Virus record (IMG/VR): IMGVR_UViG_3300032516_000021
Span: 1-62,202 of that record
Direction: 5' to 3' (one strand)
Length of the DNA: 62,202 bases
From: a virus
Taxonomy: Duplodnaviria > Caudoviricetes
The notes under the pieces are model-generated. The model worked only from the letters and a program-made list of their open reading frames with translations. It had not been told where the DNA came from and ran no database searches. A program made the translations under genes and the position numbers. Every line of letters begins with the position of its first letter. The stretch's first letter is position 1. Below are positions 49,826 through 60,617 of the stretch, in pieces.

Positions 49826-50026
49826 TTATTCGGTTTTGTTGGGGAATAACGTCTTGACGAAGACTCCGAGCGCCCTGGCCAACTTTGCCATTGTTGAACG
49901 GTGCGGTTTCTCCACCGCACCGTTCTCAAGATTATAGAGTGATTGACTGGTGATTCTTGCTCGGCCAGCCAGTTCGCAAATCGACCAGTTCTTTTTCTCA
50001 CGGTACTTTCTGACCGTGTTCTTCAA
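49826..50026 (-). CDS. XRE-family HTH regulator
   Basis: VRKYREKKNWSICELAGRARITSQSLYNLENG..KPHRSTMAKLARALGV; start overlaps the TROVE stop. Confidence 0.88.
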   Translation of the reverse strand: MKNTVRKYREKKNWSICELAGRARITSQSLYNLENGAVEKPHRSTMAKLARALGVFVKTLFPNKTE

Positions 50027-51477
50027 AGTTCGACTCCCTCAATCGCGTCAATCGGGGAACCGGTGCCCTCTTCCACGGTCTTGATAAAGGACAAAACGTT
50101 CTCAGACCAACCAGCGATCAGATTGACCTTGCCCTGTAAGACCGCCGGAGTAGTTCCTGACCCATTAAGGTCAACTATATGCAACCAAGCATCGGGGGCT
50201 ATCTTCTTGTAAGCAGACCAGAACTTCTGCAAGTCGGCCGGACGATTGTATCCTTGGCGGGAATTCCACAATTGGCAATCGGTAAAGAAGATTACACGAT
50301 CAACCTTTAATCCTTGTTTCATCAGCCAATCAGGAACGAGCCAGCCGTTGGTTGATGAGCCGACTTGAGTGCTGGCAAATCGTTCGGCTATCGCAATCGG
50401 CGAAGAAATCCCGTCATCCGTGACAATGGCAAACTGTTCACCGAAGACAGAAGTGATCGCATTCTTTGACAGGCGCGCCATCAACGCGGACATCAAGTTT
50501 GCCACATCTATGTAATTTGCCTTACCCATGCTGGAAAGCGGAGATTGCATCGATCCTGAATTATCGGCAGCGATCATAGTAAGACCGCCAATCTCTGGCA
50601 AATTGGCGATTGAATAAGTCAGTGCGTCCGAGATAGCCTTCAGCGCTGGTCTTGCCGTTGGAATGCCGGACAACTCCCGATAGGCGGTGTAAAACCGAAA
50701 TGGCAACTGGCGACTGCGTTTCACGGCTTCGGGGTTAGCGATCATGGCAAGAATATCATCCAATTTAGTAGCACCGGATTCAATGATATTCCGCAAGTTC
50801 CGCAGTGCCGCCATGTAGGGGAGTTTCTTCTCGGCAATCAATGCGTCCCACACTTCGGCAGTATTCCCCTTTCCCGATACCTGAGTTTCCCAAGTGATCG
50901 GCACTTCCAACTTATCGTCGAGCAACCGTTTCCAAAGAGCCGCCTGTTCCGCATCAATCGGCTTGGCGTGCGAGATAAGCAGAATGTCGCGGAGTTTGAC
51001 CTTGCCTGCGCGGTTGTATTTTGCCAGTCGGTGTTCATCGAAAGTACCCAGTACGTCGGCCAAAGCAAGACGCACTTGCTTGATTTTCTTGGCAAGCGAG
51101 AAGGTATTCCCTTGCTCAAGAAACGCTACCAACTCCGTCAATTGATCGGGGCGAGTGCAGACCATGTTGATTGTCCGGCGTACTAATGGGCGACCCTTGG
51201 CGTCCAATGCCAACAGTCCGCACATAACAGTCGGTATCGTGCGTAATTGCATCACGTTCCGAGCATAGATTGCTGCCTTAGCGACAAACGCCGGTTCCTT
51301 GCCGATCAACTCTTTGGCGTCTCGGATTAGATCATCGGTATTGTCGCCGTAAAACTTCGGTTCCCGATAAAGACTCGTCATCAATTGTGAAACGAACCTC
51401 TCCTTGAGCGGAAGATCATAGGCGCCCCCGCCTTCTTTGTTGATGGTTTTGATTGTGGGAATGGAATTGATTTTCAT
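50023..51477 (-). CDS. TROVE-domain (Ro60/Rsr-like) RNA-binding protein with C-terminal vWA domain
   Basis: NKEGG.AY, EPKFYG, FVAKAAIYARN, RPDQLTE, FDEHRLAKY, TWETQVS, LPYMAALRNLRNI, SRQLPFRFY; MIDAS DNSGSM and FFTDCQ; IAGWSE; AGGAG RBS. Confidence 0.93.
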   Translation of the reverse strand: MKINSIPTIKTINKEGGGAYDLPLKERFVSQLMTSLYREPKFYGDNTDDLIRDAKELIGKEPAFVAKAAIYARNVMQLRTIPTVMCGLLALDAKGRPLVRRTINMVCTRPDQLTELVAFLEQGNTFSLAKKIKQVRLALADVLGTFDEHRLAKYNRAGKVKLRDILLISHAKPIDAEQAALWKRLLDDKLEVPITWETQVSGKGNTAEVWDALIAEKKLPYMAALRNLRNIIESGATKLDDILAMIANPEAVKRSRQLPFRFYTAYRELSGIPTARPALKAISDALTYSIANLPEIGGLTMIAADNSGSMQSPLSSMGKANYIDVANLMSALMARLSKNAITSVFGEQFAIVTDDGISSPIAIAERFASTQVGSSTNGWLVPDWLMKQGLKVDRVIFFTDCQLWNSRQGYNRPADLQKFWSAYKKIAPDAWLHIVDLNGSGTTPAVLQGKVNLIAGWSENVLSFIKTVEEGTGSPIDAIEGVEL

Positions 51478-51506
51478 AACGGCTCCTTGTTAAGGGCTAA
51501 AGAAAA

Positions 51507-51569
51507 GCTCCGGCAAAAAACGATAACGGACGTTTCCAATAGAAGTAACCGTTATCTACGTCTCGGAGC
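51507..51569 (-). ncRNA. Short Y-RNA-like (Yrl-like) RNA, 63 nt
   Basis: Outer stem GCUCCG/CGGAGC, inner stem GAUAACGG/CCGUUAUC, GUUACUUC motif shared with its neighbour; directly upstream of TROVE. Confidence 0.75.
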
Positions 51570-51577
51570 AAATCAGT

Positions 51578-51684
51578 GGACTCGGCAAAAGGCGATTACA
51601 GGCATGACGGCCTTGAACCGTCACTCCCCTTTTCAGGGGAGTTCATCTCGACCAAGAAGTAACTGTAATCTACGTCTCGAATCC
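51578..51684 (-). ncRNA. Y-RNA-like (YrlA-like) RNA with a T-arm-like hairpin, 107 nt
   Basis: Outer stem GGAUUCG/CGAGUCC, inner stem GAUUACAG/CUGUAAUC, GUUACUUC motif, 8-bp GAAA hairpin, T-arm GACGG-UUCAAGG-CCGUC. Confidence 0.8.
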
Positions 51685-51702
51685 AAATCTTCATACGGGA
51701 CA

Positions 51703-51731
51703 AGGATATATTATTAGTAAAACTTTGTCAA
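51703..51731 (-). promoter_or_regulatory. Sigma-70-type promoter of the Y RNA-TROVE-HTH operon
   Basis: TTGACA-17 nt-TATCCT, ending 18 nt before the first RNA stem. Confidence 0.7.
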
Positions 51732-51761
51732 GTTTTAATTTCATAAATCTTTTGGGCATAG

Positions 51762-51793
51762 AAAACCCCCGTGCTTCTCATGAAACACGGGGG
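51762..51793 (-). terminator. Rho-independent terminator ending the late/lysis operon
   Basis: CCCCCGTG-TTTC-ATGA-GAAG-CACGGGGG followed by TTTTCT. Confidence 0.8.
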
Positions 51794-51830
51794 CGGCCAA
51801 GAAAGGAACCAAAGAACCGCGAGAAGCGGG

Positions 51831-52268
51831 TTATGTCTTGACGATTTCGGGGAAGCTTAGGTGGTCTACCCAGTCCTGGCCGAGTTTCAGGTTCAGCCAC
51901 TCAATCAACTTGTCGATCAGCCAGCCGATAATCACGCCGTCGAAAGGCTCCAAAAAGAATGGCAGCTTGATAATCTCGTCGAGCAGTTCAACCAGTGCCT
52001 TTTTCTTCTCGCCGCCGGACGCAACGGCGCCGGCATCGCGGCAGACTTTTTCGACAACAATGCCGAGTGACTTAATTAGCTCAACGGCCATGCCGGGGGC
52101 TTTGACGATGCTATCGTCGAAACCTATCGGCTTGCCGTCGGAGTTCAGTTTGAAGGGATTCCATTCCAGATTGCCGGCCTGTCCGGCGATACTTCTGAGT
52201 TTGTCGACATCAAAGTAGTCAAAAATCTGCCCCTTGATGTCGGCGCTTTTGATTGAGACGGTTGTCAT
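51831..52268 (-). CDS. Hypothetical protein in the lysis cassette
   Basis: GGAGG RBS, ATGA overlap; SGGEKKKALV..LD..IKLPFFLEPFD..II..LID pattern. Confidence 0.65.
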   Translation of the reverse strand: MTTVSIKSADIKGQIFDYFDVDKLRSIAGQAGNLEWNPFKLNSDGKPIGFDDSIVKAPGMAVELIKSLGIVVEKVCRDAGAVASGGEKKKALVELLDEIIKLPFFLEPFDGVIIGWLIDKLIEWLNLKLGQDWVDHLSFPEIVKT

Positions 52269-52567
52269 GGTTTTCCTCCGTTCACTCTCGCGGCCACACT
52301 CTTGATAAATTCCCAACCGATGACCGACACCAATGCGGCCAGTATCCCAACGCGGAGCCTGTCGGCAATCACAATCCCCGGGATCATCAATGCAATTCCG
52401 ATCCCGGAGATGAATGGCACAAGGAGAACCTTGTTCCCCGAGAGCCATGCAATTTTGACCTTGAGAGTTTCGGTCAAGGCAGTTATGAACGCCGCGACAA
52501 TGATAAGTGCAATCGGCTGAATCTTGAACAGGTCAGCGATTTGGTCGATGGTGATGTTCTGATCCAT
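52265..52567 (-). CDS. Holin-like membrane protein
   Basis: Three hydrophobic segments; close to the endolysin. Confidence 0.7.
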   Translation of the reverse strand: MDQNITIDQIADLFKIQPIALIIVAAFITALTETLKVKIAWLSGNKVLLVPFISGIGIALMIPGIVIADRLRVGILAALVSVIGWEFIKSVAARVNGGKP

Positions 52568-52657: not shown

Positions 52658-53245
52658 TTAATTTGAGTTCTTTGGCAAGAACTCGATCAGTCTATTGAGC
52701 CAGCCGCGCGCATTTTCTTCTTGATCTTGGTGCTTCTCGGCAAGGATTAAATGCCCGTAGCCACGGAGGACCGCCATTGCCGTGACGAGCAGGTTCGCGC
52801 TGGCGGCTGCCTTGTTGATCGCGGCAAGCGTAGCCTGTCCCGGTCTACCGTCGACCGCGATGTCCGCCCAAAGCTTCCCTTGCTTATTCAGCGCGTTCAG
52901 TGATCGCTGCAGATATATCACTGCCGTCGTCTCGCCGCAAAGAATTGCGGTATCAAAAACGATGTTTGCCAATTCCTGAGTCGGGAACGATTGACAATGC
53001 AACCGTCCCCAGAGGCTCCGGTAGAAAGCCACGACCAGAGAGTCAAGGACTTGATCGTTCGCAAGGCGTTGCGGGAAGTCAGGCGATGCCTTCGCCTTAT
53101 CAATAATCGGCCAGCCTAACCAGTCGGGATTGTATACCCGCGAGACGCCGCGATACGTCTCGCCGCCTCTGTCCACTGGTCGATTTGAATAACCGCCCTC
53201 GGCGCGGTCTGACTTGCTGAATGAGATTGCAAAGTCGGCTGTCAT
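52658..53245 (-). CDS. Endolysin, glycoside hydrolase family 108 with PG-binding domain
   Basis: EGGYSNRPVDRGGETYRGVS, VFDTAI..G, LQRSLN, VDGRPGQATLAA, GWLNR. Confidence 0.93.
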   Translation of the reverse strand: MTADFAISFSKSDRAEGGYSNRPVDRGGETYRGVSRVYNPDWLGWPIIDKAKASPDFPQRLANDQVLDSLVVAFYRSLWGRLHCQSFPTQELANIVFDTAILCGETTAVIYLQRSLNALNKQGKLWADIAVDGRPGQATLAAINKAAASANLLVTAMAVLRGYGHLILAEKHQDQEENARGWLNRLIEFLPKNSN

Positions 53246-53246
53246 A

Positions 53247-53684
53247 TTACACCACGACCACAGTCGGGGCAACTGTTGCGGCTACGATGGATACCGGGGT
53301 CGGCCTGACATAGGTCGGACGCATCATCTGAAGGTTTTGGATCTTAAGTTGAATTTGCTCGTTGTAGGTGATCGGCGTTGCGCCGGTGGTCACGATCTGG
53401 AATGTGGCCGCGTGGTATTCATAATCGAGGCCGGCACTGAGGGAGAGAAATACATTGTCTGCCGGCGTTAGTGGAAATGAGAATTCACCACTACTGTTGA
53501 AGTACGTGCGGACATCTACCAGTGATCGCGCATTGATGATCTGACTTGTCCCGTACAGAGTCAGCGTCATCTTAGCCGTAGCGATATTGGCGACGGGGAT
53601 CGCGGTGCCGTCCTCGTCTTTTAGCACAAATTCCAACGTGGCGGTAGCACCTTCATTGATCGGAGTTATTACTTCCAATGGCAT
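53247..53684 (-). CDS. BppU-like virion protein ending in one copy of the giant-protein repeat
   Basis: EGATATLEFVLKDEDG..GEFSFPLTPAD; C-terminus PTPVSIVAATVAPTVV. Confidence 0.55.
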   Translation of the reverse strand: MPLEVITPINEGATATLEFVLKDEDGTAIPVANIATAKMTLTLYGTSQIINARSLVDVRTYFNSSGEFSFPLTPADNVFLSLSAGLDYEYHAATFQIVTTGATPITYNEQIQLKIQNLQMMRPTYVRPTPVSIVAATVAPTVVVV

Positions 53685-53687
53685 CGT

Positions 53688-56600
53688 CTATCCTTTGATA
53701 TCGAGATTAGTTATTGTCGGTTGCTTAATTGTGGCGCCGCTGATTGCGTTTGTCTTGACAGTTACACCGGTAAGTGAACCTGTCTTGATGGTCGGCGAGA
53801 CAATGCGGGGCGAGGTGAATGTTGGGTGCCATAAAGTGACAGTCGGAGCGACCGTCGCGCAAATCAGTGTCCCTGCTGAGGGAGTGACGGTCGCACTTGT
53901 CAGAATCAGTACGGGGTCGATGGTTGCGGCTACCAGTGTCACCGGAGCTGGAGTAAGAAATACCGCGTCGAAAAGATAAGTAGGATCAACCGTAGCGGTG
54001 ACCAAGGTGGCAGCCGCCGGGGTTATACTGAAGCTACCGAGAATCACCGTTGGCGGTATGACAGCAAGCACGGCGGTCGCCGCTGCCGGAACTATCGTTG
54101 CGCTGGTGAGTGTGAAGGTCGGGGCAACGGTAGCGGCAATCAGACTCGCCGGGGAGGGTGTGAGGGCAACACCGCCGAAAGAAAGACTGGGGTCGACTGT
54201 TGCCGTGACCAGCGTTGCTGCTGAAGGGGTAACACTGAGGCTTCCCAGTACGACGGCGGGTGTGACGGTCGCAACTACAGCAGAGACGGCTGTCGGCGTT
54301 ATCGCTCTCGATCCTAATACAACGGTCGGCGCAATGGACTGCGCAACAAGGGTTGAAACAGACGGTGTGACCGCTACCGATCCCTGCACAACCGTTGGCG
54401 CCACTGAGGCCGCAACCAATGACGCGGTCGTGGGAGTAATCGCAAGACTTCCAAGAATAACGGTAGGGGCAACCGTTGCCGTCACACAGGTAGCCGGCGT
54501 CGGGATAATCGTACCCGTCACTATGTCGACGGTCGGATCGACTGACGCGGTCACTAAGGTTGCCGCTGCCGGCGTTATGGCGAGCGATCCCAAGACCACG
54601 CTCGGCGCGATCACCGCCGTGACAAGGGAACCGACCGCCGGAGTTAGTGCCAGCGATCCAAGAATAACGGTCGGATCAACCTTGCCACAAACGAGTGTAG
54701 CCACCGGCGGCGTGATCGAAAGTGATCCGAGAATAACGGTCGGCGTGACTGAAGCTGCAATCAGAGTGACAGGATTAGGAGTAATCGTCACACTGCTCAA
54801 TAGACAAGTAGGGGCAACCGTCCCCGCCACCAAGGTAGCGGCACTCGGTGTGGCGCCGATACTTCCCAGTACCGCCGTCGGATCAACCGTGGCGACCACA
54901 CTTGTAGCCGGACTGGGCGTTATCGCTACCGAACTACCCTGTACTATGCAGCCAGTCGTGGCTGTCACGAGACTTGCTGCTGAGGGCGTTATCGCAATGG
55001 ATCCAAAAACGGCAACAGGGTCAATCGTGGCAGCGACAAGCGAACTGGCCGCCGGAGTTATGGCGAGGCTGCCGAGGACAGTAGTTGGCGCGATGCTTCC
55101 TGTTATCAGACTGCTGGCAGCCGGAGTAATTGCCAGACTGCCAAGAACCGTAATTGGGTCAACCGTGGCCGCAATCAATGTGCTTGCGGTAGGAGTAATT
55201 GCGACACTGCCAAGAACCGTAGTTGGGTCAACCGTCGACGCTATCAATGTGGCGGCGGTCGGAGTGATTCTGAGACCGACAATCGGGGTAACCGAAGAGC
55301 AAATCAGCGTCGCAGCGTTCGGCGTGATTGCAAGGGCGACGGTCGGAACTACGGAATGGCAAACAAGCGTCGCGGCAGTCGGCGTGATCGTAAGAGTGAC
55401 GCTCGGGGCGATGGATGTCGTAACTAACGTGGCGGGCGTCGGCGTAATTGCCATTGACCCCAGAATCGGAGTAGGCGCTACCGAGGCCGCTACAAGGGTT
55501 CCCGCAGCAGGGGTGACTACCACACTGCCGAGGACAACGGCAGGCGTAACTGAAGCGGTTACCAATGTCGCAACATCAGGGGTGACCGCTACACTCCCAA
55601 GAATTACAGCCGGGTCAACCGAGGCAGTTACCAGCGTACTCACCGCCGGTATGATTGAGAGACTGCCAAGAATAGCTGTCGGATCAACGGTAGCCGCTAC
55701 CAACGTCGATGCATCGGGCGTCACCGCCACGCTGGTCAGGACGATGGTCGGGGCAACTGAAGCCGCAACCAGAGTCCCAGCGGACGGCGTGATCGCTATG
55801 CTGCCGAGAATGGCGACGGGATCGACTGATGCCGCTACCAGCGTAGCCGCTGAAGTGATACCCCTGAATCCGACAGTCGGCGCAACCGAAGCTGCTACCA
55901 GAGTAGCCGGAGCCGGAGTGCAAAGGAATACGTAACCGTCGATTGTCGCGTCAATCGTCAGCAGTAACTGACGCCCGCCCAAAATGCTGGCGTCAATGTA
56001 GAATCCCTTGACCTCTTGCTCGCCGAGGATGATGACCGGATCGAGGGAGTAGCCGTAAACCTTGATCTCGTAAATCAGTGAATCGATATCTTCGTGTGGA
56101 GTCGCCTCATTACTGGCATAGAAATCGACCTTGACCGAATAGTGGCCGCCGAGTAGTCCCGTGAACGAATAGACTTCGTCAACCGGAGTACCCCAGGTTG
56201 CCAAGACCATTTGTCGGGTCTCGTCGGCTACAATGTTCAACGGGTCGTAGACAGAACCCCGCGACAGCCAGACGTGATAATCGCAGGTTTTCCCTTGTTC
56301 AGCTGCCCCGCTTTCATTTAGCGTGGTTCTGACTTTAACGTCGATGCGACCGACGCCAAGAAAGTTTACCGCGTCATCGTAGTAGATGTCATCGTACTTG
56401 CCGTCACACCATGACTCGTAGGTTGCCGAGTGATCTGTGGGATCGCCTAATAGTAAAGCGCCGTACCAGATCAGCACTTCAGGGTCAATATTGCCGTCCA
56501 GTGGACCTATAACCTGATAATCATTGACGCCGCCCGATTTGCGCAGTCGGCGGGAGACCTCGATGGAGTCGAAATAACATGCAGTGTTATATGCGTCTGA

Positions 56601-59600
56601 TCTGCATCTAACGGAATCTGCAGACGTGATGCCGGCAACTTCGGCTGCTATCAGCTTACCATTTACCCAAGCAGAGCAACCCTTATTCGTCACCTGGGCT
56701 TCAACAATATCGTAGGAGTATTTGCCGGCACGATGCGTTGCATGAGCGTGCCAAGTTCCATCATAATAACCAGCATCCCAAACGTTCGAACCTACGCTCT
56801 TGCCAGCTCCAAATTCACCCACGCCACTATTCTGGAGTGACACCCATTGACTTGGATTGCCTTGAGCTTCATTCCATATTGCTGCTTTAACGTGGATGTT
56901 TTCATAACTTGCATTCGCCAGGACTGTGGCCTCAGGAACAACCTTTGACTTGAAGACTGCTGATTGTTCTCCTCCTCCCGCTGTTGCAAAATTCTTTTTG
57001 ACATCTAACGGAGCGGAAGTGCAGATGCACTTCATCGAAGTCGCGCCAGCATGGACCTTATTCCCTTCGTGTACCGATCCCGAATAGTAAGCTGCAGCTG
57101 AGGTGCCAGCTATTAGTTCCCAATCCCGCTTACCAGCGATCACTTCACCATCAGCATAGGTCTCGAAACTTTCAAAGTAGATCAGGACTTCATTCGGATC
57201 AGATAGTGGATTCGTTGTCTCATTCGGATTGCCGTATTCAATGTAGTAGTCTTTGGCTCCCGCCGCCGCGCCTGCCGGCAGTACCTCCTGGAGTTTGAAG
57301 CGTATCTGCGTGTTCTCAAAGTTAGCGTAATCGATAATGCGATCAATCTCCGTATCCCCCCAACGGATTCGCAAGTCGCGCGCGTCATGGCGAATCAGTC
57401 CATAAGGTTCATTCGTGTAATAGAAAACGTCGTACCCGCTTGACCAGACAATCCCAAGTTGGTCATTCGAGTAGTACATCTTGCCACCCATCATCGCCAT
57501 GCCGACGGAAGAATTTTCCGATATGCGATTAGCTACCCAAGTATCGCCGTTATCTGCTGAAGCTAAGTGAACAATTTCTTGTCCCCAGAGTTCGTCGTTT
57601 GAAGCGTAGTTGACCTCAATAATCCGATTACAACGGCTGGTGCGAACAACAGTATCCTCGGTAGTATCACTCTCCGAGAAACCAAATTCCGCCGCTTCTA
57701 CTGCGGCCTTTGTCCAGGCTGCGCTCGTTGCCGGATTCGTGTCCCACCATGTCCTGTAAATAGCATAGAGACCATTGGGAACAAGAATTGCTGCTCCCTC
57801 ATAGTCCACTCCGCCGATTCGCAATAGATGCTTGTAGGTAGTCGTGCCCTGTCCAAAGGAACGACGAGTCACCGTTTCCACGCCAACCCTCAGAATCTTG
57901 ATACCATTGGGAAGTGTCTTGCTGGACGTGAACGTGCATTTTTGCACAGCTCCGGTCTTAGCCAAATAACTGGAGTCCCAATCCATATTATTACCACCGT
58001 CATCGACAAATTCGTAGAGTGCCGTACCTATGCCGTACCCCGTCGAGTCGGTATAGTTACCATTCCCCGTCGGAACATGATGCTTGATGCAACGGCTGTC
58101 CTCACCAGTGAACATATGCAGGACGCCGTCACGGTCACAGATCATCGGGTCTAAGGCGTCATGGATTGTGATGTCGTGGGCTTCAGAGATAGACGTATGA
58201 TGCCAAGCACCCGTATAGTAGCGGGAGACGCCGAAGCCATTATTTTGATAGGGATTGGCGGCCTGAAATCCGTTTGCCTCGAGGTAAGCCACAATCGGCC
58301 AGCGAACGCCGTTCGCATCGGGTGCAAGCATGGTGAGGTAGCGAATGAAATAAGTCATCGAACCGTCGGCGGCGTTTTTAATTACTGGACCGCCACTATA
58401 CTCGGCAGTCGTTCTATTTATTGGGGCAGAGTGCGTCGTACCACAGGCCACATCAGCAATCGTACACCACGAACGGAAATACGGTGCTGAGTTCGGTTCT
58501 AATGTAGAGTATGCGTACCAGACGCCTTGAGTGACATTATTCCCATCTACGAAACTGAAGGCGACGTGAACGCGCTTTGTCGTCTGGTCGTAATAGAGTG
58601 CATTGAAATAAAGCCGGAATGCAGCACCGCCATCATTTACGGCGACTTTCTGTTCACTTGACCAGGTTAATCCACCATCGGCGGAACAGAAGAAACTCCC
58701 ACCAGCCTCGCCATGCCCCCTGAAAAATACAAAGAGCAAATTACTGTCTTGGTCACAAGCAGGAATTGGATATGACGTATAGCATTGTCTCGTCCACTGC
58801 GTCGTCGAACCGACTGCATTAGGTCGAAGAACCTCTACTCCGTTTCCATGCGTAACTTCGATCCAGACTTGTAGCACAAGAATGCTCGTTGCGGTGCCCA
58901 TAGCATTTGAGTATATTCCTGCCTGCAAAGCATTCAACTCAGAATAAAGCCATGTTGCACTCGTGTCCGGGTTTGTTGTCCAGTCCGTTGAATAAGTTGC
59001 CAAGGAAGCAGTTATAGTAAATGCCGTTCCTTGTCGGTCTATCGAACTCGGGCGCAGAACTGCTTTGAGTGCTGATGTTGTTCCGCTTGCAGCTTTTGCC
59101 CTAATCTTAACAGTGACTTTCGAGATTATGTCGCCAGAACCCAATGCGGTTGCACCAAGATTGTAAGTGTCCGTCTTACCCGTAACGTAGGCAAGCAAGC
59201 CGTTATTATTAAGTTCTGTGGCCAAATCTATGTATTCGAAATTCTCTCCCCCCAATGAAATAACACCCTTCAATGTCCAACCGCTCGTTTCACCCGGCAG
59301 AGCACCTGATTGATCGGGGGCGTTCGAAACCGCATGGTAAAGAGCACCGACGTGTGCACCGTAGAACAAATGCAGGTAACCGTCGTTATCTCTAATAATA
59401 TGCGGACAGTTATGCGGGTCGGAAGACGATTGGGTGCTATCAACACGATACGGCGTGCCCCACAATTTCGTGAAGTGGTCATAGCTTTGAATGCTCACGC
59501 CGTACATGCCGTCTACGTCGGAGATATGACTTTGATAGCAGACGTGCGTCTTCCCGTGGGCGTAGAGCACCTGATTGCTTGGCTCACGGATCGCTTGATT

Positions 59601-60617
59601 GAAGCACCCGTCGTTGGCGATCTTGTACCGCGTACCCGTCGGCATATTGAACGACGCCGTATAGTCAGCGGGGATTTCCGGGTGGTCAGTCCTGAACGTG
59701 AGTTTGCGCCGGAAGGTAGTAGCCGGATTTGTCCATGCGCCTTTTCTTTTGATCAGAACCGTAGGGGTGACGGTATGAGTTACCAGCGTGGACGGACTCG
59801 GCGTCTTCGCAACGCTGGTCATAATTATGATCGGCGCGATGGTGGCGGCCACAAGAGTCGAGATAAGCGAACTGATGACGATAGCGGTAATGGGAGCCAC
59901 AGTTGCGCAGACCAACGTACTTGCATCGGGTGTGATGACCACCGATGACAATACAACTGTTGGGGCTACGATCGCGCAGACCATCGTACTCGGGGCAGGC
60001 ACCACTATCCCAACCATCGGATCAACGGTCGCACAAACACAAGTGGCGGCGGCGGGCGTGATCGCGACTGATCCTAAGGCAACGGTCGGTGTGACACTTG
60101 CGGTGACCAGCGTGGCTGCTGCCGGTGTGACCACAATCGGTTCGGCGGCGGCGGTATAGACGACTACCAGCCAGACATCGTAGACATTAATCTGTCTGCT
60201 GTTAGCACACGCCACACACTTTACGCCAAAATAGCAAGCGTTGACCCGTGCCGATGTTCCCCACGCACTCCCGTCAGGATGATTTGCAAAGGCAAAGGAT
60301 GTCTCTGCAATACTCGTAGAGGGGGCAAAAACCGGACTTTGCAGCAAGGCGGTATTCACACCATCGCTGCAAGCCAACGCTATTGTGTTTGTCCCATTCC
60401 CACTATCCTTAGCCCGCGCATAGAGAGTGACTGACGTAATCGCTGAAGCAGCTGGCATGTCTGCCATGTAGTAGAGATCAAGTCCGCCAACGTAGGTCGG
60501 ATTCGCTGCTATGGACGTACTATCAGACGCATCGTTGACGTAGCTGTAGTTATCAACTTCGGGCGACCATACAGGACTATAATCAGCACTTGGGCGTAAT
60601 GGATCAGTCGTAGCCAT
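53688..60617 (-). CDS. Giant (2309 aa) putative virion appendage: BNR/Asp-box propeller, DUF2341-like and lectin-like domains, ~23-aa T/A/V/P repeats
   Basis: DPHNCPHI..DNDGYLHLFYGAH (BNR_4-like), Asp boxes SADGGLTWS and SADNGDTWV, DLRI..YYIEYGN, dozens of TPAAATLVTASVDPTVILGSLAI-type repeats. Confidence 0.85.
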   Translation of the reverse strand: MATTDPLRPSADYSPVWSPEVDNYSYVNDASDSTSIAANPTYVGGLDLYYMADMPAASAITSVTLYARAKDSGNGTNTIALACSDGVNTALLQSPVFAPSTSIAETSFAFANHPDGSAWGTSARVNACYFGVKCVACANSRQINVYDVWLVVVYTAAAEPIVVTPAAATLVTASVTPTVALGSVAITPAAATCVCATVDPMVGIVVPAPSTMVCAIVAPTVVLSSVVITPDASTLVCATVAPITAIVISSLISTLVAATIAPIIIMTSVAKTPSPSTLVTHTVTPTVLIKRKGAWTNPATTFRRKLTFRTDHPEIPADYTASFNMPTGTRYKIANDGCFNQAIREPSNQVLYAHGKTHVCYQSHISDVDGMYGVSIQSYDHFTKLWGTPYRVDSTQSSSDPHNCPHIIRDNDGYLHLFYGAHVGALYHAVSNAPDQSGALPGETSGWTLKGVISLGGENFEYIDLATELNNNGLLAYVTGKTDTYNLGATALGSGDIISKVTVKIRAKAASGTTSALKAVLRPSSIDRQGTAFTITASLATYSTDWTTNPDTSATWLYSELNALQAGIYSNAMGTATSILVLQVWIEVTHGNGVEVLRPNAVGSTTQWTRQCYTSYPIPACDQDSNLLFVFFRGHGEAGGSFFCSADGGLTWSSEQKVAVNDGGAAFRLYFNALYYDQTTKRVHVAFSFVDGNNVTQGVWYAYSTLEPNSAPYFRSWCTIADVACGTTHSAPINRTTAEYSGGPVIKNAADGSMTYFIRYLTMLAPDANGVRWPIVAYLEANGFQAANPYQNNGFGVSRYYTGAWHHTSISEAHDITIHDALDPMICDRDGVLHMFTGEDSRCIKHHVPTGNGNYTDSTGYGIGTALYEFVDDGGNNMDWDSSYLAKTGAVQKCTFTSSKTLPNGIKILRVGVETVTRRSFGQGTTTYKHLLRIGGVDYEGAAILVPNGLYAIYRTWWDTNPATSAAWTKAAVEAAEFGFSESDTTEDTVVRTSRCNRIIEVNYASNDELWGQEIVHLASADNGDTWVANRISENSSVGMAMMGGKMYYSNDQLGIVWSSGYDVFYYTNEPYGLIRHDARDLRIRWGDTEIDRIIDYANFENTQIRFKLQEVLPAGAAAGAKDYYIEYGNPNETTNPLSDPNEVLIYFESFETYADGEVIAGKRDWELIAGTSAAAYYSGSVHEGNKVHAGATSMKCICTSAPLDVKKNFATAGGGEQSAVFKSKVVPEATVLANASYENIHVKAAIWNEAQGNPSQWVSLQNSGVGEFGAGKSVGSNVWDAGYYDGTWHAHATHRAGKYSYDIVEAQVTNKGCSAWVNGKLIAAEVAGITSADSVRCRSDAYNTACYFDSIEVSRRLRKSGGVNDYQVIGPLDGNIDPEVLIWYGALLLGDPTDHSATYESWCDGKYDDIYYDDAVNFLGVGRIDVKVRTTLNESGAAEQGKTCDYHVWLSRGSVYDPLNIVADETRQMVLATWGTPVDEVYSFTGLLGGHYSVKVDFYASNEATPHEDIDSLIYEIKVYGYSLDPVIILGEQEVKGFYIDASILGGRQLLLTIDATIDGYVFLCTPAPATLVAASVAPTVGFRGITSAATLVAASVDPVAILGSIAITPSAGTLVAASVAPTIVLTSVAVTPDASTLVAATVDPTAILGSLSIIPAVSTLVTASVDPAVILGSVAVTPDVATLVTASVTPAVVLGSVVVTPAAGTLVAASVAPTPILGSMAITPTPATLVTTSIAPSVTLTITPTAATLVCHSVVPTVALAITPNAATLICSSVTPIVGLRITPTAATLIASTVDPTTVLGSVAITPTASTLIAATVDPITVLGSLAITPAASSLITGSIAPTTVLGSLAITPAASSLVAATIDPVAVFGSIAITPSAASLVTATTGCIVQGSSVAITPSPATSVVATVDPTAVLGSIGATPSAATLVAGTVAPTCLLSSVTITPNPVTLIAASVTPTVILGSLSITPPVATLVCGKVDPTVILGSLALTPAVGSLVTAVIAPSVVLGSLAITPAAATLVTASVDPTVDIVTGTIIPTPATCVTATVAPTVILGSLAITPTTASLVAASVAPTVVQGSVAVTPSVSTLVAQSIAPTVVLGSRAITPTAVSAVVATVTPAVVLGSLSVTPSAATLVTATVDPSLSFGGVALTPSPASLIAATVAPTFTLTSATIVPAAATAVLAVIPPTVILGSFSITPAAATLVTATVDPTYLFDAVFLTPAPVTLVAATIDPVLILTSATVTPSAGTLICATVAPTVTLWHPTFTSPRIVSPTIKTGSLTGVTVKTNAISGATIKQPTITNLDIKG

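What the first reader, a model, noticed from the sequence alone, without database searches (positions are those of the whole stretch)
51507..51684. Two paralogous RNAs with compensatory base changes: one T-arm-bearing, one minimal
Seen: both RNAs share CGAGACGUAGAU.AC.GUUACUUCU and C.GU.AUCG..UUUUGCCG. The inner helices GAUAACGG/CCGUUAUC and GAUUACAG/CUGUAAUC differ at two positions, each fully compensated, and the outer stems GCUCCG/CGGAGC and GGAUUCG/CGAGUCC also co-vary. This is direct evidence of selection on RNA structure. The 107-nt copy has a GAAA-capped hairpin and a T-arm-like GACGG-UUCAAGG-CCGUC but no clear D arm. The 63-nt copy has almost no effector module and is followed by UUUUCUUU just before the TROVE RBS. 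Neither shows the metazoan-type GGUCCGA/UUGAC bulged helix. Inference: a constant protein-binding scaffold with exchangeable cargo loops; the short copy may act as an autoregulatory attenuator or gate.
Basis: partly seen in the sequence, partly recalled or inferred. Interest (0 to 1): 0.7.

Follow-up and report, generated by a model that had tools for sequence, protein, structure and literature searches.

The report
Two phage Y RNAs beside Ro60
Two small structured RNAs just upstream of a phage Ro60 (TROVE) gene are Y RNAs, the known RNA partners of Ro60; they belong to a large, unannotated phage family that shares one stem and carries different heads.

Summary
On the minus strand, a 107-nt RNA (51684..51578) and a 63-nt RNA (51569..51507) share a two-helix stem. 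All differences between them at paired positions keep pairing. The short RNA ends 29 nt before the ATG of a TROVE/Ro60 gene.

A covariance model built only from 40 RNAs of other viral contigs hits exactly these two places in the 62-kb window (E 8e-11 and 5.5e-6). It also finds 177 further copies in 69 of 82 related viral loci, all on the TROVE strand. Covariation is strong in that set and in a second, metagenome set.

The shared module is a bulged outer stem, a GYAG-type internal loop, an 8-bp helix and WUACUUC. The heads differ: most are minimal, some are full tRNA-like YrlA types, and some, like the long window RNA, have a hairpin plus a T arm only.

These are bacterial/phage-type Y RNAs. 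The closest precedents are Thermus phage phiLo Yrl1/Yrl2 and Mycobacterium smegmatis YrlA/YrlB. They are new members of a known kind and Rfam does not detect them.

The attenuator idea is not: the U-run is not conserved across the family. Ro60 binding and expression remain untested.

The parts
51765..51794 (-). Intrinsic-terminator-like hairpin that ends the upstream gene (51831..52448) and sets the left limit of the RNA-TROVE transcription unit
   Evidence: 13 pairs, 8 of them G-C, 4-nt loop, then a T-run.
51703..51731 (-). Sigma-70-like promoter candidate (TTGACA, 17 nt, TATCCT), about 19 nt upstream of the long RNA
   Evidence: 10 of 12 hexamer matches. It is the only candidate between the terminator and the TROVE start. 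This is a consensus match only.
51578..51684 (-). Long Y RNA (107 nt). Outer stem 51684-51678 with 51584-51578. Motif CGAGACGUA 51679-51671. Inner helix 51670-51663 with 51601-51594. UUACUUCU 51662-51655. Spacer 51654-51643.
   Evidence: Model R1 hit at 51686..51576, 28.5 bits, E 5.5e-6. The spacer carries a 5-nt deletion in contigs of 3 of 4 other runs laid.
51623..51642 (-). 8-bp hairpin capped by GAAA in the head of the long RNA, in the position of a long tRNA variable arm
   Evidence: Sequence and fold. The same hairpin-then-T-arm layout is seen in L052:2173-2277, L022:502-608 and L031:1815-1927.
51606..51622 (-). T-arm mimic GACGG-UUCAAGG-CCGUC
   Evidence: Sequence and fold. The T-arm regex finds such an arm in 35 of 52 distinct family members of 100 nt or more.
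51507..51569 (-). Short Y RNA (63 nt). Outer stem 51569-51564 with 51512-51507. Motif CGAGACGUA 51565-51557. Inner helix 51556-51549 with 51529-51522. 19-nt loop 51548-51530 that begins UUACUUCU.
   Evidence: Model R1 hit at 51572..51504, 43.8 bits, E 8.1e-11.
51499..51506 (-). U-run UUUUCUUU after the short RNA
   Evidence: Sequence. Not conserved in the family and not called as a terminator.
51483..51488 (-). Ribosome-binding site AAGGAG of the TROVE gene, 5 nt before the ATG
   Evidence: Sequence.
50023..51477 (-). Ro60/TROVE gene (484 aa), the presumed protein partner
   Evidence: Pfam TROVE E 2.4e-32; vWA_Ro60 26.3 bits, just under its 27.7 cut-off. PDB: phage phiLo Ro60 chains 9kop/9l5y E 1.5e-20, RO60 9nen 1.3e-5, Deinococcus Rsr 2nvo 6.1e-4. 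D305, S307 and S309 are invariant in 30 relatives; I recall D-x-S-x-S as the MIDAS motif of vWA domains.

Best explanation
The two elements are phage-encoded Y RNAs, the small non-coding RNAs that bind the ring-shaped Ro60/TROVE protein encoded immediately downstream.

Proposed mechanism:
1. One promoter near 51731..51703 transcribes long RNA, short RNA and the TROVE mRNA as a single precursor. Only 29 nt separate the short RNA from the ATG, too few for a separate promoter.
2. Host RNases release the RNAs from the precursor.
3. Ro60 binds the shared basal module: an outer stem with a bulged 5'-strand nucleotide, the CGAGACGUA / UUUUGC internal loop, and the 8-bp helix followed by UUACUUC. Binding stabilises the RNAs.
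4. The differing heads are effector modules. The long RNA shows a hairpin stacked on a T arm, a partial tRNA mimic that displays the T loop. The short RNA shows only a 19-nt pyrimidine-rich loop, like YrlB/Yrn2-type Y RNAs.
5. By analogy with Deinococcus, Salmonella and phage phiLo, the RNAs tether Ro60 to a host enzyme such as PNPase. They may also gate access to the Ro60 ring, re-directing host RNA decay or repair during infection.

What is shown and what is inferred:
- Shown here: the structure, the covariation, family membership, gene order and strandedness.
- Inferred: co-transcription, processing, Ro60 binding and the effector role.
For: 1. The partner gene is a Ro60 orthologue.

2. Model R1 was built from 40 RNAs of other viral contigs, none from the window. 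It gives exactly 2 hits at E <= 10 in 62,202 bases on both strands, and they are the two RNAs.

3. In the window plus 82 related viral loci (564,705 bases) R1 gives 179 hits at E <= 0.01, 179 of 179 on the TROVE strand.
- 69 of 82 loci have at least one hit.
- Of the 177 hits in those loci, 165 lie upstream of TROVE, 12 downstream and 0 inside.
- The loci were not de-duplicated.

4. In five whole viral records (1,071,410 bases) 16 of 16 hits lie at the TROVE locus.

5. Covariation on 126 distinct rows:
- 87.2% of cells paired, against 57.4 +/- 0.8 in shuffles
- score 0.786, against 0.240 in shuffles and at most 0.302 with slid partners
- inner helix 96.3% paired, with 8 of 8 pairs changed on both sides
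- RNAalifold on the MAFFT seed alignment, which was not fitted to any structure, also finds the 8 inner pairs, all with compensatory changes

6. Replication in 80 metagenome loci: 112 hits, 110 on the TROVE strand; 83.8% paired, score 0.704 against 0.230.

7. The roughly 140-nt members of the same family carry V, T, acceptor-like and D arms. They match Rfam YrlA below threshold: 6 hits in 5 loci, 32.3-44.7 bits, E 4.9e-7 to 0.002. This ties the shared stem to known Ro60-bound RNAs.

8. UUAC directly after the helix fits the YUAY that Chen 2014 places at the start of the V loop. The UA there is conserved in YrlA.

9. Precedents read in papers:
- YrlA and YrlB upstream of rsr, made from one precursor, in M. 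smegmatis
- Yrl1 and Yrl2 upstream of phage phiLo Ro60, which bind it and form complexes with host PNPase
Against: - No Rfam family is hit. Nothing reaches gathering score, nothing relevant appears at E <= 10, and YrlA RF02553 gives no hit.
- The published 5'-strand motif GNCGAAN0-1G is only partly present. The window has UCCGAGACG and UUCGAGACG: the CGA core is there, the first G and the second A are not.
- Most family members have no CGA at all (GGCAUUGUAG, GGUGGCGUAG, GGUAGUGUAG). That the conserved motif is the Ro60 site therefore rests on position and analogy.
- The outer stem pairs less well in the model alignments: 76.6% and 69.2%. This is partly a one-column register problem, which also affects the two window RNAs.
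- Alignments A4 and A5 were fitted to the model's structure.
- One contig (run X11, depth 3.96) carries two changes in the long RNA's outer stem (51583, 51684). Each breaks a pair and they do not compensate each other. Differences at depth under 5 may be errors.
- Binding, expression and RNA ends were not observed.
Confidence: 0.85

Rival explanations
1. The structures are a cis-acting leader of the TROVE mRNA. The short hairpin plus its U-run would be a partial terminator or attenuator, or a Ro60-responsive translational operator, controlling TROVE expression rather than making stable trans-acting RNAs.
For: - The short RNA ends 29 nt before the ATG and is followed by UUUUCUUU.
- No promoter candidate lies between the RNAs and the gene, so the RNAs are part of the 5' leader.
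- The 223-nt fold pairs part of the AAGGAG region in a small hairpin.
- This role could coexist with the Y RNA role.
Against: - The U-run is not conserved. TTTT lies within 10 nt after the stem in 10 of 50 last-in-array copies against 9 of 75 internal copies. Mean T content is 3.36 against 3.24 of 8.
- The module occurs in arrays of up to 9 copies, hundreds of nt from the gene, and 12 of 177 copies lie downstream of it.
- The terminator scan did not call it.
- Sister members are YrlA-type RNAs, which the literature describes as stable Ro60-bound RNAs.
Confidence: 0.1
2. They are degenerate tRNA genes or tRNA fragments, for example decoys for host tRNA-targeting nucleases, that act without Ro60.
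For: - The long RNA has a T arm that fits the tRNA consensus.
- tRNA genes and tRNA-shaped Y chimeras sit in the same arrays in other phages.
Against: - ARAGORN finds no tRNA in the window and Rfam tRNA gives no hit.
- The short RNA has no tRNA feature at all, yet shares the whole basal module.
- The module is confined to TROVE loci: 16 of 16 hits in 1.07 Mb of whole viral records.
Confidence: 0.03
3. The repeats work at the DNA level, for example as protein-binding iterons or recombination sites, and the RNA folds are incidental.
For: There are two direct repeats of about 25 and about 19 nt.
Against: - Changes are compensatory in the RNA sense and include many G-U pairs, which would be A-C on the other strand (pair tables).
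- 289 of 291 model hits lie on the TROVE strand.
- Helix sequences diverge freely while pairing is kept (96.3% in both sets).
Confidence: 0.02

Closest known systems
Yrl1 and Yrl2 of Thermus phage phiLo with phage Ro60 (Nucleic Acids Res 2025, PMC12135203; abstract and passages read)
   Same: - Two Y RNA-like RNAs lie directly upstream of a phage Ro60 gene.
- The layout is stem, bulge, stem, with the conserved motif in the basal region.
- That phage protein is the best solved-structure match of the window's TROVE protein (9kop/9l5y, E 1.5e-20).
   Different: - The phiLo RNAs were picked by a CGAA motif. The window has CGAG, and its wider family mostly has no CGA.
- The passages read mention no T arm in the phiLo RNAs.
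- Binding and PNPase complexes were shown for phiLo; nothing has been shown for the window.
YrlA and YrlB of Mycobacterium smegmatis, and YrlA/YrlB of Salmonella Typhimurium (Chen et al., RNA 2014, PMC4201824; Results parts 1-2 of 3 read)
   Same: - One tRNA-like and one small hairpin-type Y RNA sit beside rsr on the same strand.
- In M. smegmatis both lie upstream of rsr and come from one precursor.
- YUAY follows the stem, and the heads are modular.
- M. smegmatis YrlB also has a possible T arm.
   Different: - The window's long RNA lacks the D arm and the acceptor-like stem-loop that define YrlA.
- It does not match Rfam RF02553.
- The GNCGAAN0-1G motif is met only in part.
Yrn1 and Yrn2 of Deinococcus radiodurans (as described in Chen 2014)
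   Same: - Yrn1 has a T arm but no full D arm, like the long RNA.
[quoted passage not shown]
- Both are encoded upstream of rsr in a polycistronic precursor.
   Different: No sequence match was tested here. Yrn1 is described with an anticodon-like arm, whereas the window RNA has a GAAA-capped hairpin abutting the T arm.
Metazoan Y RNAs
   Same: A terminal stem formed by the 5' and 3' ends, a bulged helix as the Ro60 site, a variable apical module, and a U-rich 3' tail.
   Different: - No Rfam match at E <= 10.
- GGUCCGA/UUGAC is absent as such.
- The genes are not stand-alone; they sit in an operon leader.

Membership tests
Bacterial/phage Y RNAs (Ro60-associated ncRNAs) | Encoded within about 4 kb of a Ro60/TROVE gene, on the same strand | tested here: met
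   The RNAs lie 29 and 100 nt upstream of the TROVE ATG on the same strand.
Bacterial/phage Y RNAs (Ro60-associated ncRNAs) | Long stem formed by pairing of the 5' and 3' ends, interrupted by a bulge or internal loop | tested here: met
   Folds. Covariation of both helices in 126 and 104 distinct relatives.
Bacterial/phage Y RNAs (Ro60-associated ncRNAs) | 5'-strand motif GNCGAAN0-1G (Chen 2014) or CGAA (phiLo paper) | tested here: inconclusive
   The window has UCCGAGACG and UUCGAGACG: the CGA core is in the right place but the motif is not exact. Most relatives read GGCAUUG, GGUGGCG or GGUAGUG instead.
Bacterial/phage Y RNAs (Ro60-associated ncRNAs) | Bound and stabilised by the Ro60 protein | not testable with these tools
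   The complex predictor on hand takes protein and ligand chains only, and the one run search listed no RNA run.
YrlA (Rfam RF02553) | Score at or above the gathering threshold of 69 bits | tested here: not met
   No hit at gathering score, none at E <= 10 in 51300-51900, none in the family search of the record.
YrlA (Rfam RF02553) | tRNA-like domain with a T arm, an acceptor-like stem-loop and a D arm | tested here: not met
   The long RNA has a T arm but only AUGC between it and the 3' strand of the stem. The short RNA has none of the three.
YrlA (Rfam RF02553) | YUAY directly after the helix that stands for the anticodon stem | tested here: met
   UUAC follows the inner helix in both RNAs. 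WUAC is near-invariant in the family. The equivalence with the published YUAY is judged by position; cmscan aligned that region with low confidence.
Phage TROVE-linked Y module (model R1, made here) | Significant match to a model built without the window's sequences | tested here: met
   43.8 bits (E 8.1e-11) and 28.5 bits (E 5.5e-6). These are the only 2 hits in the window.
tRNA | Cloverleaf recognised by ARAGORN or Rfam RF00005 | tested here: not met
   0 tRNA genes in the window; no Rfam tRNA hit.
Intrinsic terminator / attenuator | Compact G+C-rich hairpin followed at once by a U-run, conserved among relatives | tested here: not met
   A U-run is present, but the hairpin is a 63-nt interrupted stem that the scan did not call. 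U-runs are no more frequent after last copies than after internal copies.

The most novel reading that the evidence does not exclude
Phage Ro60 operons may carry small libraries of adaptor RNAs. One Ro60-docking stem, matched to the phage's own Ro60, is fused to interchangeable heads: none, a variable-arm-plus-T-arm half-tRNA as in this window, a full YrlA tRNA mimic, or a true tRNA body with the docking stem in place of the anticodon arm. Each head would bring Ro60 to a different host tRNA- or RNA-handling enzyme, or act as a decoy for tRNA-directed defences. That would make Ro60 with its Y RNAs a programmable counter-defence or RNA-remodelling device. Because the RNAs sit in the leader of the Ro60 mRNA, the protein may also sense its own RNA supply.
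Probability: 0.25. Interest if true: 0.65.

Novelty: new member of a known kind. Interest (0 to 1): 0.4.

Why it matters
Y RNAs are the regulators of Ro60, a protein studied from human autoimmunity to bacterial stress survival. Few bacterial or phage Y RNAs are annotated, and Rfam's YrlA model missed every RNA examined here at its threshold.

This window adds a clean two-RNA example. It also led to a simple model that finds 289 further copies beside TROVE genes in 162 viral and metagenome loci. That gives a way to annotate the small YrlB-like Y RNAs, which the authors of the 2014 study could not trace by sequence outside Salmonella.

A phage Ro60-like protein has been reported in a preprint to counter a bacterial defence system (Bas63 gp130 against Ppl; passages read). 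The phiLo study proposes hijacking of host PNPase. The partner RNAs are therefore relevant to phage-host conflict.

For the finding itself, the value is correct annotation rather than surprise.

Tried and rejected
- **Exact-pattern scan of viral contigs** with the window's 5' block: 0 matches. Among the 162 loci, a regex for the core of that block (GA[G/A]ACGUA) matches in a Y-module context only in the window's own copy, L001.
- **Close relatives of the TROVE protein.** A scan with the single protein gave only 2 viral loci. The closest metagenome relative (L084, 53% identity) is cut at the contig start, so its upstream region could not be read.
- **Expression.** No RNA holder was listed for 51300-51900. 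Only DNA contigs could be laid, so nothing can be said about transcripts or RNA ends.
- **Earlier findings of this scan** were not open to the session.
- **The 2020 Annual Review on bacterial Ro60** (PMC10870794) is not held.
- **Supplements of Chen 2014**, which list the 22 phages with YrlA, could not be seen. Some of the loci used here may already be listed there.
- **D-arm regex** was too crude. Some RNAs it classed as "T arm only" do have D arms on inspection. I therefore give no total for that class and name only inspected examples.
- **Co-phylogeny** of motif flavour and TROVE protein was considered but not run.
- **A complex prediction** was not run, because the predictor takes no RNA chain.

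Full report
**Context**

The window is a single IMG/VR virus record of 62,202 bases, estimated 58% complete. All long ORFs lie on the minus strand. They include a large terminase, a portal protein, a head protease, a tape measure protein and DnaB- and SNF2-type helicases, and a GH108 endolysin.

The ORF at 50023..51477 (minus strand, 484 aa) is a Ro60 orthologue:
- Pfam TROVE matches at E 2.4e-32. The Ro60 vWA domain scores 26.3 bits, just under its cut-off of 27.7.
- The best solved relatives are the Ro60 of Thermus phage phiLo (9kop/9l5y, E 1.5e-20), RO60 (9nen, 1.3e-5) and Deinococcus Rsr (2nvo, 6.1e-4).
- Known phage genomes hold relatives in 112 records, all below 60% identity.
- The closest proteins anywhere are 53-54% identical. 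The nearest named ones come from Clostridia and Bacillus, at about 40-43%.

**The observation**

Read on the minus strand, the region contains, in order:
- a strong terminator-like hairpin (51794..51765)
- a promoter-like TTGACA-17-TATCCT (51731..51703)
- a 107-nt element (51684..51578)
- an 8-nt spacer
- a 63-nt element (51569..51507)
- UUUUCUUU, then AAGGAG, then the TROVE ATG

The two elements share a 25-nt 5' block and a 19-nt 3' block.

- The inner 8-bp helices differ at two pairs, both changed on both sides.
- The outer stems differ by two more double changes and one U.G to U-A change.
- No substitution at a paired position breaks a pair.

Both RNAs fold better than all 200 shuffles (z -4.0 and -3.3). 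In a 223-nt fold of the whole leader the two structures form independently.

The head of the long RNA is an 8-bp GAAA-capped hairpin. It is followed with no spacer by GACGG-UUCAAGG-CCGUC, which fits the T-arm pattern of tRNA. There is no D arm.

After the outer stem a single 5'-strand A is bulged and the next G pairs with a C of the 3' strand. A bulged helix therefore sits where Ro60 binds in other Y RNAs.

**Relatives**

Two scans for TROVE relatives in viral contigs gave 82 loci. A plain motif scan showed WUACUUC, preceded by a 7-nt helix strand and a GYAG-type motif, in several tandem copies on the TROVE strand next to the gene in most loci.

I aligned 40 short examples, none from the window.

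- RNAalifold on this unfitted alignment recovers the 8 inner pairs, all with compensatory changes.
- A covariance model, R1, was built from the alignment with the outer stem added.
- R1 finds exactly two hits in the whole window at E <= 10, and they are the two RNAs (43.8 bits, E 8.1e-11; 28.5 bits, E 5.5e-6).

This is the key test, because the window's RNAs are recognised by a model that never saw them.

**Distribution**

- Over the window and the 82 loci (564,705 bases, both strands) R1 gives 179 hits at E <= 0.01, all on the TROVE strand.
- 69 of 82 loci have at least one hit, and 13 have none at this threshold.
- Hits per locus run 1 (20 loci), 2 (21), 3 (15), 4 (4), 5 (3), 6 (5) and 9 (1).
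- Of the 177 hits in loci, 165 lie upstream of TROVE, 12 downstream and none inside.
- The last upstream copy ends a median of 85 nt before the start of the protein match.
- Loci were not de-duplicated, and several are near-identical contigs.
- In five whole viral records totalling 1,071,410 bases, 16 of 16 hits fall at the TROVE locus. That search uses a coarser first filter.
- A second set of 80 metagenome loci gives 112 hits, 110 on the TROVE strand and 2 on the other strand in one locus, L086. A few of these contigs are the same as IMG/VR ones.

**Covariation**

| Measure | Viral set | Metagenome set |
|---|---|---|
| Distinct rows | 126 | 104 |
| Cells paired | 87.2% | 83.8% |
| Cells paired in shuffles | 57.4 +/- 0.8% | 58.2% |
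| Covariation score | 0.786 | 0.704 |
| Score in shuffles | 0.240 | 0.230 |
| Highest score with slid partners | 0.302 | 0.289 |
| Inner helix paired | 96.3% | 96.3% |
| Outer helix paired | 76.6% | 69.2% |

In the viral set 8 of 8 inner pairs and 7 of 7 outer pairs show changes on both sides.

Two caveats apply. These alignments were fitted to the model. The outer stem is also off by one column for some subtypes, including the window's, which lowers its percentage.

**What the module is**

The shared part has four elements:
- an outer stem
- one bulged 5' nucleotide followed by two pairs
- an internal loop with conserved letters on both strands (5' YGYA; 3' U-rich, then the partners of the two pairs)
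- an 8-bp helix followed by WUACUUC

The two pairs after the bulge co-vary between subtypes: GC-AU with AU-C, GU-GG with UC-C, GU-AG with CU-C, GA-AC with GU-C.

The window's CGAGACGUA is closest to the GGUGACGUA subtype of L052 and L054. Within the fetched loci the GA[G/A]ACGUA core appears in a Y-module context only in the window.

Copies within one array share the loop motif more than copies from different loci do:
- 5' motif identity 0.756 within a locus (143 pairs) against 0.572 between loci (7,732 pairs)
- 3' loop strand 0.725 against 0.545
- helix strand 0.532 against 0.482 (no permutation test was run)

This is what a docking site for the locus's own protein predicts.

**Link to known Y RNAs**

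Family lengths are bimodal. Of 126 distinct RNAs, 74 are under 100 nt and have no T arm. Of the 52 of 100 nt or more, 35 have a T-arm motif.

The roughly 140-nt members show, after UUACUUCG, a small hairpin, a T arm, a closed acceptor-like stem, UA and a D arm. This is the order described for YrlA.

- They match Rfam YrlA below its 69-bit threshold: 6 hits in 5 loci, 32.3-44.7 bits.
- None of 20 loci has a YrlA hit at threshold.

The same stem therefore carries known-type YrlA heads in sister RNAs.

Chen 2014 describes three points that match. Y RNAs lie within 4 kb of rsr on the same strand. A conserved YUAY follows the stem. [quoted passage not shown] In M. smegmatis both lie upstream of rsr and derive from one precursor.

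The phiLo study found two Y-like RNAs upstream of a phage Ro60. It showed binding and ternary complexes with host PNPase.

**The two heads**

The long RNA's layout is spacer, hairpin, T arm, then a few nt and the 3' strand. It recurs in unrelated contigs:
- folded: L052:2173-2277, L022:502-608, L031:1815-1927
- by inspection of sequences: L119:3397-3514, L121:3998-4116, L091:1078-1196, L090:423-538

It is a recurrent subtype. It looks like the variable arm plus T arm of a class II tRNA without the acceptor and D arms, and it resembles what is written about Deinococcus Yrn1 (T arm, no full D arm).

The short RNA is the minimal type.

**Natural variants**

Contigs of 3 of 4 other sediment runs carry a 5-nt deletion in the spacer at 51648-51654, with the stems unchanged. 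The spacer therefore seems length-tolerant.

One low-depth contig has two non-compensating changes in the long RNA's outer stem. This counts mildly against strict selection on its outermost pairs.

**The attenuator idea**

The RNAs must be part of the TROVE leader, so a cis effect is possible. The comparative data do not support a conserved terminator:
- U-runs are as rare after last copies (10 of 50) as after internal copies (9 of 75).
- Copies also lie downstream of TROVE.
- The scan did not call a terminator here.

I give this rival about 10%, and it could coexist with the main reading.

**Verdict**

These are phage Y RNAs of the bacterial type: new members of a known kind, missed by Rfam. 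The long RNA shows a partial-tRNA head.

- Confidence that they are Ro60-partner RNAs: 0.85.
- The tether or gate mechanism rests on analogy only.
- Interest is moderate. The single locus is ordinary for a specialist.
- The family-wide docking module, the arrays of up to 9 copies and the tRNA-shaped permuted forms noted in passing may be worth a follow-up.

I found no description of such arrays in two full-text searches. The supplements of Chen 2014 and the 2020 review could not be read.

Noticed in passing
L003:2720-2865, L028:4098-4224, L059:2238-2365: These stretches hit Rfam tRNA at 47.8, 47.4 and 42.2 bits over 126-146 nt. Folds show an acceptor stem, D arm and T arm with open ends at the acceptor stem. 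The anticodon arm is replaced by the Y docking module (GYAG, helix, UUACUUC) closed by a loop. L059 ends in CCACCA. This looks like a circular permutation of YrlA, a tRNA body carrying a Ro60 site.
   Followed up: partly
L019:163-1895; L030:1572-2308; L031:1711-2420; L074:1402-2131: Arrays of 6 to 9 tandem Y modules upstream of one TROVE gene, mixing minimal, half-tRNA and full YrlA-type heads.
   Followed up: partly
L031:538-886; L069, L075 and L054 flanks: A phage tmRNA gene (119.5 bits) and clusters of tRNA genes lie beside the TROVE gene and Y RNA arrays in several large viral contigs.
   Followed up: no
L011:175-317, L054:2061-2199 and other roughly 140-nt members: The small hairpin after UUACUUCG has a 4-bp stem and a 7-nt loop of the form CU-NNN-AA (for example CUGCUAA, CUCGUAA, CUGUUAA). 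This is the shape of a tRNA anticodon loop.
   Followed up: no
window 51648-51654; 51583; 51684: Contigs of other sediment metagenome runs carry a 5-nt deletion in the long RNA's spacer (runs X2, X8, X11). One contig at depth 3.96 (X11) has two single-letter changes in its outer stem.
   Followed up: partly
window 53688-60617 (minus strand): A 2,309-aa ORF with a BNR repeat match (E 1.9e-11) lies upstream of a GH108 / PG_binding_3 endolysin at 52658-53272.
   Followed up: no
window 51478-51498 (minus strand): In the 223-nt fold a small hairpin pairs part of the AAGGAG ribosome-binding site with CCUU just upstream. It is weak and was not compared across loci.
   Followed up: no
L086:366-639 (minus strand): This is the only locus where the two model hits lie on the strand opposite to TROVE, upstream of it in divergent orientation.
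   Followed up: no
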